Assembly: GCF_019599295.1 (NCBI RefSeq)
Contig: NZ_JAIEWN010000016.1
Span: 59,839-83,682, forward strand
DNA length: 23,844 nt
Direction of reading: 5' to 3'
Source: Oscillochloris sp. ZM17-4
GTDB lineage: Bacteria > Chloroflexota > Chloroflexia > Chloroflexales > Chloroflexaceae
The first letter of the stretch is position 1. Every line of letters begins with the position of its first letter. The notes under the pieces are model-generated. The model was not told the DNA's origin, searched no databases, and was given only the letters and a program-made list of their open reading frames with translations. This document shows, one piece after another, positions 20,625-22,420 of the stretch. The translations under genes and the position numbers were made by a program.

Positions 20625-22106
20625 ATGAGCGAGCAGCGTTTTCCCGCCGGCGCGCAGCCCAGCCTGCGCATCGCCAACGGCGGCGGCGATATCACGGTCG
20701 AGGTCTGGGACGAGGACGAGATCCTGGTCGAGTCCGATAGCCGCGCGTTTGAGCAGCACCGCGAGGGCGACATGCTGGTGATCGAGGGCTGCCCCGACGA
20801 CCTGGAGATCCGCGTGCCGTCGCGCACGGCGGTGACGATCAGCCAGCAGGGCGGCGATGTGCATGTCGAGGGCGTGCGCCTGGTGGCCCTCGAACGGATT
20901 GGCGGCAGCGTGGATCTCGAGAATCTGTCCGAGGGCGCCGAGCTGGGCCTGATCAGCGGCGACCTGACGGTCGAGGGGGCGCCCCGCGTGGTCGGCCCCG
21001 GCCCTGTCCAGGGCGACGCCGAGCTCTCCAACGTGCAGAGCGTCGAGCTGGAGCGGGTCGAGGGTGACATGTCGGTCGATGACGCGCAGACGGTGATCGT
21101 CGGCAGCGTCGGCGGCGACCTTCGGGCCGACGCGCTCGCCGAGCGCCTCCAGGCCGGGGCGGTCGGCGGCGACATGCGCGTCGACGCCAGGGGCGTGGTC
21201 GAGATCATGGTCGAGTCGGTCGGCGGCGACATGCAGATCGAGGGCGGGCTCAGCACGCTGCGCTGCAGCACCGTCGGCGGCGACCTCACGGTCGGCGGCA
21301 CGGTCGATAGCGCGTCCCTCAGCAATGTCGGCGGCGACCTGCGGATCGACCGCGCCCGCGAGCTGCGGGTCGGCAACGTCGGCGGCGACATCAAGGCCCA
21401 GGGCCTGGAGCGCGTGGAGCTGGGCGCGGTCGGCGGCGACTGCAAGCTCACCGGGGTCGCGGGCAGCGCGGAGCTCGGCACCATCGGCGGCGACCTGGCC
21501 CTCCAGGGCACCCTCGCGGCCGGCAGCAGCAGCCGGGCCAACGTGGCCGGCGACGCCAGCCTCCAGCTGCCCCGCGAGCCAAACCTGACCCTGACGGCCA
21601 CCGTCGGCGGCGACCTGCGCGGCGTGGAGGCCGGGTCGTCGGGCGACCACAAGCGGGTCCACCTGCGCTACGGCGCGGGCGAGGCCAGCCTGAGCCTGCG
21701 CGTCGGCGGCGACCTGCGCCTCTCGGGGGCCGGCGCGCCCGAGAGCAGCAGCAGCTCCGCCAGCAGCTCAAGCGCCAGCGCGGGCGCCCCCGGATTCGAC
21801 AGGGACATGGAGGGCTTCGGCCGCGACATGAGCGAGCTGGGCCGCGAGCTGGGGCGCATGGGCCGTGAGCTGGCCGGCGAGATCTCGGCCGCCTTCGCCG
21901 AGGGCGGCGCGTCGCGCGGCGGGGCCTGGGCCGAGGAGATGGGCCGCAAGCTTGAGCAGAAGGCCCGCCGCTTCCAGGAGCAGGCCGAGGAGCGCGCCCG
22001 CCGCGCCGAGGAGCGCGCCCGCACGCTGGATGAGAAGGCCCGCCTGCGGGTGAAGATCAACGAGCGCGAGTGGCAGCTCGACCCCGAGCGGCTTGAGCGG
22101 ATCAAC
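20625..22106 (+). CDS. DUF4097 ('putative adhesin', LiaG/YvlB-like) beta-helix repeat protein with a charged coiled-coil tail. The 3' end is disrupted: no in-frame stop until 23060, and coding signal ends abruptly at about 22104
   Basis: RBS 'ggagga'. At least 12 tandem about-20-aa repeats of type 'VGGDLxVxG', for example '[11 protein letters not shown]', '[12 protein letters not shown]', '[11 protein letters not shown]', '[12 protein letters not shown]', '[11 protein letters not shown]', '[11 protein letters not shown]', '[11 protein letters not shown]'. GC3 falls from about 95% to about 40% after codon 'aac' 22104-22106. Downstream, the same DNA encodes other genes on the minus strand. Confidence 0.7.
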
Positions 22107-22364
22107 CCAGATCGCGCCGCTGTCCTTGAGCACGCGCCTACAGGCCGTGAGCCACGCGCGGGTGAAGGCGTCGTACTCGGCGAAGCTGGCGAACTTATCC
22201 CACGCGTCATCCACGGCGTCCACGCGGGTCTGGTTCGGCCGCCAGAGATCGCCCTTGAGCTGGAGGTTATAGGGCGGGTCGGCGAAGATCAGGTCGACGC
22301 TGCGCTCGGGCAGGGTCTCCAGAACCGCCAGGCTATCGCCGTGGTAGATGTGGTCGAGCTGCAT
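22104..22364 (-). pseudogene. CcrM-like beta-class N6-adenine DNA methyltransferase, N-terminal 87 codons only (motif IV DPPY region), with intact RBS and ATG
   Basis: '[87 protein letters not shown]' closely parallels Caulobacter CcrM residues about 7-94 ('...[67 protein letters not shown]'). After V87 the frame runs into antisense of the DUF4097 gene. RBS 'aaggg' lies 6 nt upstream. Confidence 0.75.
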
Positions 22365-22375
22365 AAAACCCTTTA

Positions 22376-22420
22376 TCTCTGGACGAGATGGCCAGCGAAG
22401 CTGGCCATCTCGTCCAGAGA
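22376..22420. repeat. 21-bp-stem perfect palindrome with a GAA loop: same family and core as 8208-8260
   Basis: 'tctctggacgagatggccagc gaa gctggccatctcgtccagaga'. It lies between the PyrK-like stop (22424) and the MTase-fragment start (22364). Confidence 0.9.

What the first reader, a model, noticed from the sequence alone, without database searches (positions are those of the whole stretch)
22100..22420. DUF4097 gene loses its 3' end and stop codon exactly where a CcrM-like methyltransferase N-terminal fragment begins on the opposite strand
Plus-strand coding signal collapses after nt 22106, with no stop until 23060. From 22364 down to 22104 the minus strand encodes 87 residues nearly collinear with the N-terminus of Caulobacter CcrM (DPPYNLQL...VDAVDD.WD.F.SF..YD.FTR.WL...RRVLKD.GAIWV). 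It has its own RBS and ATG and sits directly behind one of the GGC-GAA-GCC palindromes. The homology stops at the junction. CcrM-family MTases are characteristic of Alphaproteobacteria, so this looks like a horizontally acquired, now-decayed methyltransferase (or the edge of an inserted element) that truncated the neighbouring gene. Alternatively it is an assembly chimera.
Basis: seen in the sequence. Interest (0 to 1): 0.55.

Follow-up and report, generated by a model that had tools for sequence, protein, structure and literature searches.

The report
Rearrangement scar truncating two convergent genes
Two genes that face each other in Oscillochloris sp. ZM17-4, a DUF4097 "toastrack" gene and a CcrM-type DNA adenine methyltransferase, have both lost their tail ends and are fused at one junction, which is an ordinary deletion or rearrangement scar and not a piece of imported DNA.

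Summary
The plus-strand DUF4097 gene (from 20625) matches its orthologues only up to nt 22105. From 22364 down to 22105 the minus strand encodes the first 87 residues of a CcrM-type methyltransferase (MTase).

The window comes from Oscillochloris sp. ZM17-4. In the sister species ZM16-3 both genes are intact, convergent and 13.2 kb apart, in the same order and orientation. The pyrK-like gene, hairpin, ribosome-binding site (RBS) and MTase start are conserved. The fragment is therefore native at this locus, not recently acquired and not the edge of an insert.

The junction is of the deletion type. It lies at the edge of an imperfect 10-nt microhomology (GAGCGGATCA versus GAGCCGATCA), which occurs in 0.07% of random position pairs.

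It is not a simple gene loss:
- ZM17-4 carries the MTase C-terminal part (from about codon 113 to 359) on a 42-kb contig, behind a hairpin that in ZM16-3 lies just downstream of the MTase.
- Three of the ZM16-3 interval genes lie on a 72-kb contig.
- About 25 MTase codons are in neither fragment.

Most likely this is a real, recent, microhomology-mediated rearrangement that left a split MTase pseudogene and a DUF4097 gene without its SHOCT-like tail. A library or assembly artefact is not excluded without reads. Interest is low.

The parts
20625..22105 (+). 5' part (codons 1-493, plus two bases of codon 494) of the DUF4097/toastrack gene. The last ~92 codons are missing, including the Pro-rich linker and the SHOCT-like C-terminal domain.
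   Evidence: Pfam PF13349. It is 72% aa / 81% nt identical and collinear to the 586-aa ZM16-3 orthologue up to ...ERLERI(K). The ZM16-3 protein has a SHOCT-like domain at residues 560-585. Fourteen metagenome homologues align through residues 516-586, most to 575 or beyond.
22095..22105 (.). Junction with imperfect microhomology. GAGCGGATCA(A) from the DUF4097 parent faces GAGCCGATCA(C) from the MTase parent (reverse complement). The crossover is one base out of register, and nt 22105 (A) could come from either parent.
   Evidence: Three-way DNA comparison of window, ZM16-3 and L017. A match of 9/10 or better at offsets -1..+1 occurs in 0.07% of random position pairs from the window.
22105..22364 (-). 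N-terminal 87 codons of a CcrM-type beta-class N6-adenine DNA MTase. It holds motif IV (DPPY) only and lacks motif I (FGTG) and the RAMA domain.
   Evidence: PF01555 profile positions 1-51 of 221. It has 8 differences in 87 aa (about 91% identity) to the ZM16-3 359-aa MTase, which is collinear with CcrM 6PBD. dN/dS is 0.24.
21768..22104 (-). Non-homologous read-through of the MTase fragment, antisense to DUF4097. With the fragment it forms the 198-aa ORF deposited as protein K2Z83_13805 / WP_220595767.1, named 'DNA methyltransferase'.
   Evidence: Exact-sequence look-up and sequence. No homology past residue 87.
22106..23060 (+). Non-coding read-through of the DUF4097 frame, antisense to the MTase fragment and the pyrK-like gene. 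There is no stop codon until 23060.
   Evidence: ORF list, codon-position GC. The 811-aa product is absent from the protein collection, and a gap in locus-tag versus accession numbering suggests it was annotated as a pseudogene (inference).
22365..22423 (-). Native pyrK-MTase intergenic region: a perfect 20-bp-stem hairpin with a 3-nt loop (22377-22419), then the RBS AAAGGG (22369-22374).
   Evidence: Alignment with ZM16-3 and L017, inverted-repeat scan. No T-tract terminator match.
22424..23218 (-). Intact pyrK-like iron-sulfur protein (K2Z83_13810), which is the upstream neighbour of the MTase in this clade.
   Evidence: Pfam PF10418, 100% match to P0121, synteny in L015 and L017.

Best explanation
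This is a genuine and evolutionarily recent structural rearrangement in the Oscillochloris sp. ZM17-4 lineage. Two convergent genes lay near each other in the ancestor, as they still do 13.2 kb apart in ZM16-3. An illegitimate recombination or template switch, guided by microhomology, joined them inside their coding regions. That event removed the 3' ends of both genes from this locus. The results are a DUF4097 gene without its SHOCT-like tail and a CcrM-type MTase split into non-functional pieces. Codons 1-87 are here. Codons from about 113 to 359 are on another contig behind a displaced terminator hairpin. About 25 codons are lost. Shown directly: the junction itself, the intact state in relatives, the microhomology, and the presence of the other MTase piece and three interval genes elsewhere in the assembly. 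Inferred: that the junction exists in the cells and not only in the assembly, that it is recent, and that the two MTase breaks belong to one complex local event.
For: 1. Both flanks are collinear with ZM16-3 up to nt 22105.
2. In ZM16-3 contig RYFE02000010.1, DUF4097 (117987-119747, +) and the 359-aa MTase (132938-134017, -) are intact, convergent and in the same order relative to rpoN and pyrK/priA. An independent Logan assembly confirms the intact MTase (L016). Two random genome points would not share this neighbourhood and orientation.
3. There is 9/10 microhomology at the junction (p about 7e-4). That is too short and too imperfect for a de Bruijn misjoin.
4. ZM17-4 protein P0280/P0392 (K2Z83_23470, 42,062-bp contig) is the MTase C-terminal part, 88% identical to ZM16-3. 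Its homology starts at profile position 78, not 52, and it is preceded by unrelated sequence. The gene is therefore broken at a second, different position in a second contig.
5. The peptide upstream of that piece back-translates to the same hairpin stem that occurs once in the fetched loci, 160 nt downstream of the ZM16-3 MTase stop. This points to a local rearrangement.
6. No full-length CcrM-type protein from ZM17-4 appears among the top 120 hits, which extend down to 70% identity.
7. dN/dS of the fragment is 0.24 with no frameshift or stop, which indicates a recent break.
Against: No reads and no second assembly of ZM17-4 could be examined. ZM17-4 proteins are not in the positional index, and the junction 26-mer is absent from the metagenome contigs. 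A pure deletion does not fit, because ZM17-4 orthologues of the amidase, carA and the 282-aa MTase lie on a 72,266-bp contig and the MTase 3' part lies on a 42,062-bp contig. The full path of events is therefore unresolved. Synteny beyond secG differs between ZM16-3 and L017, so the ancestral interval in ZM17-4 is uncertain. The whereabouts of the DUF4097 3' end are unknown. The lack of decay in the fragments also fits an artefact.
Confidence: 0.65

Rival explanations
1. The junction is an artefact of library preparation or assembly. Possible sources are a chimeric template formed by microhomology-primed template switching during amplification, or a mis-resolved assembly path. On this view the true genome has intact DUF4097 and MTase genes.
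For: Microhomology-guided joins also arise in vitro. The fragments show no mutational decay. The interval genes and the MTase 3' part are present on other contigs. No independent assembly or read support was available.
Against: The shared sequence is only about 10 imperfect bases, far below assembler k-mers. The contig runs through the junction without a break. The other MTase piece starts at about codon 113, behind foreign sequence in mid-ORF, and not at codon 88 or at a contig end. An intact gene would therefore need two independent misassemblies inside one gene. Individual chimeric molecules rarely dominate a consensus (general knowledge).
Confidence: 0.2
2. A plain deletion removed both 3' ends and whatever lay between them in ZM17-4, either a short spacer or a ZM16-3-like interval. 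The MTase C-terminal piece on the 42-kb contig would then be the remnant of a separate, duplicated copy and not the other half of this gene.
For: The junction geometry is that of a deletion: 5' part joined to 5' part in the original orientation. The gene content of the interval varies between relatives. The break points of the two MTase pieces do not coincide.
Against: Both pieces diverge from ZM16-3 at an orthologue-like level (91% and 88%), similar to the pyrK-like gene at 88%. The displaced hairpin next to the second piece comes from the same locus. No relative shows two copies.
Confidence: 0.1
3. One reading: a horizontally acquired alphaproteobacterial-type MTase, or the edge of a mobile element, inserted here, truncated DUF4097 and then decayed.
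For: CcrM is best known from Alphaproteobacteria. The GC of the fragment (0.66) is below that of its neighbours (0.74-0.78).
Against: The lower GC comes from codon positions 1 and 2, and GC3 is 0.91. The locus is conserved with intact MTases in two sister species. The nearest homologues are from Chloroflexota. There are no mobile-element genes, tRNA or duplications. There is no decay.
Confidence: 0.03

Closest known systems
Caulobacter crescentus CcrM (M.CcrMI, PDB 6PBD): beta-class N6-adenine DNA MTase with a C-terminal (RAMA-type) DNA-binding domain
   Same: The intact ZM16-3 orthologue aligns with CcrM over residues 6-359 (E=1e-144) and has PF01555 plus RAMA. The window fragment carries the DPPYNLQL motif-IV segment in the same position. 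CcrM homologues with this C-terminal domain were already reported in some Chloroflexi (PMC3973325).
   Different: The window holds only 87 of about 359 codons and has no AdoMet-binding motif I and no RAMA domain. The residues at CcrM Gly39-Gly40 read K-G here and R-S in ZM16-3. Gly40 has been linked to GANTC versus GAWTC specificity (PMC8919816), so target specificity is not certain. Any cell-cycle role in Chloroflexota is unknown.
Microhomology-mediated illegitimate recombination or template-switch rearrangements in bacteria, which produce pseudogenes
   Same: It is a precise junction of the deletion type between non-homologous loci, at a short imperfect repeat and one base out of register. 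A second junction nearby is of the inversion type, as inferred from P0392.
   Different: The material removed from the locus is not lost from the assembly. The event is therefore more complex than the textbook single deletion. The mechanism itself was not observed.
DUF2089 / SHOCT-like / DUF4097 (toastrack) three-gene cassette of Chloroflexales
   Same: The three genes occur in the same order in the window, in ZM16-3 and in more than 20 other loci.
   Different: Only in the window does the DUF4097 gene lack its conserved C-terminal SHOCT-like domain.

Membership tests
CcrM-type beta-class N6-adenine DNA methyltransferase (PF01555 + RAMA) | Catalytic motif IV (DPPY) near the N-terminus | tested here: met
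   DPPY at residues 29-32 of the 87-aa fragment. The PF01555 match covers profile positions 1-51.
CcrM-type beta-class N6-adenine DNA methyltransferase (PF01555 + RAMA) | AdoMet-binding motif I (FGTG) and the rest of the MTase fold (PF01555 positions 52-221) | tested here: not met
   Absent from the window (tblastn; Pfam). Positions 78-219 are on another contig (P0392). Positions 52-77 are in neither piece.
CcrM-type beta-class N6-adenine DNA methyltransferase (PF01555 + RAMA) | C-terminal RAMA / CcrM-type DNA-binding domain | tested here: not met
   Not in the window. Present in ZM16-3 P0241 and in the ZM17-4 fragment P0392.
CcrM-type beta-class N6-adenine DNA methyltransferase (PF01555 + RAMA) | Methylation of GANTC (or a related site) in vivo | not testable with these tools
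   This needs SMRT or nanopore methylation data. The GANTC count in coding DNA equals the codon-shuffled expectation (32 versus 34.8 +/- 4.3), so there is no sequence footprint either way.
DUF4097 toastrack protein of the DUF2089 cassette | PF13349 repeat domain | tested here: met
   E=3e-11. 72% identity to the ZM16-3 orthologue over residues 1-494.
DUF4097 toastrack protein of the DUF2089 cassette | Conserved C-terminal linker plus SHOCT-like domain | tested here: not met
   Homology stops at residue 493/494. The ZM16-3 protein has PF22746 at residues 560-585. Homologues align to residue 575-586. No copy is present elsewhere in the window.
Inserted mobile element or genomic island edge | Integrase, transposase or tRNA, terminal repeats, target-site duplication, and interrupted synteny on both sides | tested here: not met
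   No such genes (Pfam), no tRNA and no flanking direct repeats. The 22365-23843 side is syntenic with ZM16-3 and L017.
Simple microhomology-mediated deletion | Both flanks collinear with the intact relative and microhomology at the join | tested here: met
Simple microhomology-mediated deletion | The intervening DNA is absent from the genome | tested here: not met
   ZM17-4 amidase, carA and the 282-aa MTase lie on a 72,266-bp contig. MTase codons from about 113 to 359 lie on a 42,062-bp contig.

The most novel reading that the evidence does not exclude
The two MTase breaks (codon 87/88 joined to DUF4097, and about codon 100-113 joined in inverted orientation to the displaced SBP (substrate-binding protein gene) terminator hairpin) may be footprints of one replication-based, multi-junction template-switching event. 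That event would have relocated tens of kilobases and left a natural CcrM-null Oscillochloris. An even less likely reading is that the two MTase halves are expressed from separate loci and reassemble into a split enzyme.
Probability: 0.12. Interest if true: 0.4.

Novelty: already known. Interest (0 to 1): 0.2.

Why it matters
The main value is practical.
- The locus yields two misleading gene models. The 198-aa "DNA methyltransferase" WP_220595767.1 is an 87-residue fragment fused to antisense read-through. The 811-aa DUF4097 ORF is likewise an artefact.
- The locus marks a structural breakpoint that should be checked before the ZM17-4 assembly is used for synteny or pangenome work.
- If the breakpoint is real, ZM17-4 is a natural strain lacking the CcrM-type MTase that its sister species retain. 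It could then serve to test, by comparing methylomes, whether CcrM homologues matter in Chloroflexota.

Tried and rejected
1. GANTC avoidance as a footprint of CcrM activity. The count is 40 against 81 +/- 8 in dinucleotide shuffles, but the deficit disappears under synonymous-codon shuffling (32 against 34.8 +/- 4.3). Rejected as a codon-usage effect.
2. Searching the window for the missing DUF4097 3' end or the next MTase segment found nothing.
3. Exact look-ups of ZM17-4 proteins to fetch its other contigs failed every time: not on record.
4. The junction 26-mer is absent from the metagenome contigs.
5. A degenerate DUF4097 motif scan of the metagenomes returned only distant relatives at 37-59% identity. 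All reach or approach the C-terminal region, and none has the MTase or pyrK-like gene nearby.
6. Literature searches for ZM17-4 and ZM16-3 found nothing on sequencing or assembly methods.
7. Rfam, tRNA and promoter/terminator scans around the locus found nothing.
8. The pyrK-MTase adjacency is not conserved across the family. O. trichoides DG-6 and Ca. O. fontis have a hydrolase there instead. It holds only for the clade of ZM16-3, ZM17-4 and L017.
9. Single-inversion and excised-circle models were worked through on paper. Neither reproduces both observed junctions together with the contig sizes.
10. The first homologue search with the 87-aa fragment returned only short partial proteins, so it said nothing about full-length relatives.

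Full report
**What is in the sequence**

The window carries a plus-strand ORF at 20625..23060 (811 aa) and a minus-strand ORF at 21768..22364 (198 aa).
- Only residues 1-494 of the plus ORF match a family: DUF4097/toastrack, PF13349.
- Only residues 1-87 of the minus ORF match a family: N6_N4_Mtase, PF01555, profile positions 1-51 of 221.
- Codon-position GC shows both frames lose their coding pattern at the same point.
- In 120 homologues the MTase sequence continues ...IWVIGSYHNI..., whereas the window reads ...[10 protein letters not shown].

**Source and annotation**

- The pyrK-like protein next door is 100% identical to K2Z83_13810 of Oscillochloris sp. ZM17-4, on a 120,319-bp contig.
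- GenBank and RefSeq carry the 198-aa read-through ORF as K2Z83_13805 / WP_220595767.1, named "DNA methyltransferase".
- The DUF4097 ORF has no protein record, and the locus-tag versus accession numbering skips one gene there. It was probably annotated as a pseudogene. This is an inference.

**State in relatives**

The closest available genome is Chloroflexales bacterium ZM16-3.
- It has a 586-aa DUF4097 orthologue that continues ...ERLERIKEQARR... and ends in a SHOCT-like domain.
- On the same contig, 13.2 kb downstream and convergent, lies an intact 359-aa MTase with N6_N4_Mtase plus RAMA domains. The pyrK-like gene, a Uma2 gene and priA follow it. An independent Logan assembly also has this MTase intact (L016).
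- The MTase is collinear with Caulobacter CcrM (6PBD) from end to end (E=1e-144).

A third species (L017) has pyrK, MTase, an SBP (substrate-binding protein) gene and secG at the same locus. O. trichoides DG-6 and Ca. O. fontis do not. The hairpin, RBS and ATG upstream of the fragment are conserved with ZM16-3.

The fragment is therefore the native 5' end of a clade-conserved gene. It is not an import and not the edge of an element. CcrM homologues with the C-terminal domain were already known in some Chloroflexi (PMC3973325). The fragment's GC3 is 0.91. The window has no mobile-element genes, tRNAs or flanking duplications.

**The junction**

At the DNA level:
- Window: ...GAGCGGCTTGAGCGGATCAACCCAGATCGCGCC...
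- ZM16-3 DUF4097: ...GAGCGGCTTGAGCGGATCAAGGAGCAG...
- ZM16-3 MTase, reverse complement: ...GGTAGGAGCCGATCACCCAGATCGCGCC...

The join is at nt 22105 +/-1. The two parental sequences share GAGC(G/C)GATCA immediately to its left, and the product is one base longer than an in-register crossover would give. A 9/10 match in that position, at offsets -1..+1, occurs in 0.07% of random position pairs from the window.

The geometry is of the deletion type: the 5' part of one gene joins the 5' part of the other in their original orientation.

**Why this is not a simple deletion**

- ZM17-4 orthologues of three ZM16-3 interval genes lie together on a different contig of 72,266 bp: the amidase, carA and the 282-aa MTase, with accessions MBX0329746-752.
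- Searching with MTase residues 88-359 found K2Z83_23470 of ZM17-4 on a third contig of 42,062 bp. It is 88% identical to ZM16-3 and intact to the C-terminus.
- The RefSeq model of that gene (P0392, 279 aa) begins MVLRRGLAAPQHHQFLLDKVSEGPSQGNSWLI. It becomes homologous only at VWVKTNP, about codon 113, PF01555 position 78. About 25 codons are therefore in neither piece.
- The first 12 residues of P0392 back-translate to a perfect palindrome, GTGCTGCGGCGCGGC-nnn-GCCGCGCCGCAGCAC. Among all fetched loci it occurs once, just after the SBP stop and 160 nt downstream of the MTase stop in ZM16-3.

This last point is inferred from protein sequence only. It suggests a second junction, of the inversion type, within the same small region.

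**Real or artefact**

Points in favour of a real event:
- The two joined points are neighbours in the right orientation in the sister genome.
- The shared sequence is far too short and imperfect for a k-mer-graph misjoin.
- The contig passes through the junction without a break.
- An intact MTase would need two different misassemblies within one gene on two contigs.

Points of caution:
- No reads or second assembly could be checked.
- Microhomology joins also arise in vitro.
- The fragments show no decay. dN/dS against ZM16-3 is 0.24 for the fragment, compared with 0.49 for the pyrK-like gene. That means either a very recent break or no break at all.

My estimates are about 65% for a real complex rearrangement, 20% for an artefact and 10% for a plain deletion plus an unrelated second remnant.

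**Consequences if the break is real**

- The 87-residue piece has motif IV (DPPY) only and cannot bind AdoMet.
- The other piece lacks motif IV.
- No full-length CcrM-type protein of ZM17-4 appeared among hits extending down to 70% identity. The strain probably lacks this activity.
- DUF4097 loses its conserved SHOCT-like tail and instead reads 317 codons of antisense sequence.

Target specificity should not be assumed to be GANTC. The residues at CcrM Gly39-Gly40 are K-G here and R-S in ZM16-3, and Gly40 has been linked to specificity for the third base (PMC8919816). GANTC frequency gives no footprint once codon usage is controlled.

**Verdict**

This is a correctly observed but ordinary feature: a breakpoint scar that created two pseudogene fragments and a mis-annotated protein. 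The horizontal-transfer and inserted-element reading is not supported. Novelty: already known kind. Interest is about 0.2.

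Noticed in passing
window 8283-17787 (left edge 8104-8282): A segment of about 9.5 kb lies between ftsK and rpoN but is absent from that position in ZM16-3. It encodes a YggX-like Fe-trafficking protein, an ATP-grasp ligase, a 7TM-PAS-GGDEF protein, a B12/radical-SAM protein, an SPFH/vault-like protein, a transglutaminase and a formyltransferase-like protein. Its left edge is 82% identical to the intergenic stretch upstream of the 282-aa MTase inside the ZM16-3 13-kb interval (L001 17660-17835). 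The core, 8200-8282, is a palindromic repeat also seen in L017. It may be another rearrangement or indel boundary.
   Followed up: partly
window 23219-23303 versus L015 9355-9960: ZM16-3 has a Uma2-family (putative restriction endonuclease-like) gene between the pyrK-like gene and priA, and L017 has an unrelated 269-aa gene there. The window has only 85 nt with a hairpin.
   Followed up: no
window 5263-5335, 8216-8252, 13754-13902, 16780-16838, 22377-22419, about 23222-23262: There are many long, perfect or near-perfect intergenic palindromes with 3-nt loops. Two of them (8216-8252 and 22380-22416) share an ATGGCCAGC-nnn-GCTGGCCAT core. None matches Rfam or the T-tract terminator pattern. ZM16-3 also carries copies of a palindromic repeat of about 100 nt just downstream of both DUF4097 and the MTase.
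   Followed up: partly
window 21768-22364 (-): The public protein record WP_220595767.1 / MBX0328750.1, named 'DNA methyltransferase' or 'hypothetical protein K2Z83_13805', is an 87-aa MTase fragment fused to 111 aa of antisense read-through. It is an annotation artefact.
   Followed up: yes
whole window: GANTC looks twofold under-represented against dinucleotide shuffles (40 versus 81). This is fully explained by codon usage: 32 versus 34.8 +/- 4.3 in coding DNA after synonymous-codon shuffling.
   Followed up: yes
L017 10846-11920 and 11981-13661: The third species' MTase and SBP genes each carry one frameshift in the public MAG assembly. These are probably long-read indel errors rather than real pseudogenes.
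   Followed up: no
L001 12179-12862 (ZM16-3): An ORF with no Pfam hit sits just downstream of the intact DUF4097 gene in ZM16-3, next to the palindromic repeat. By eye it looks like a transposase remnant. Such elements could make this interval rearrangement-prone.
   Followed up: no
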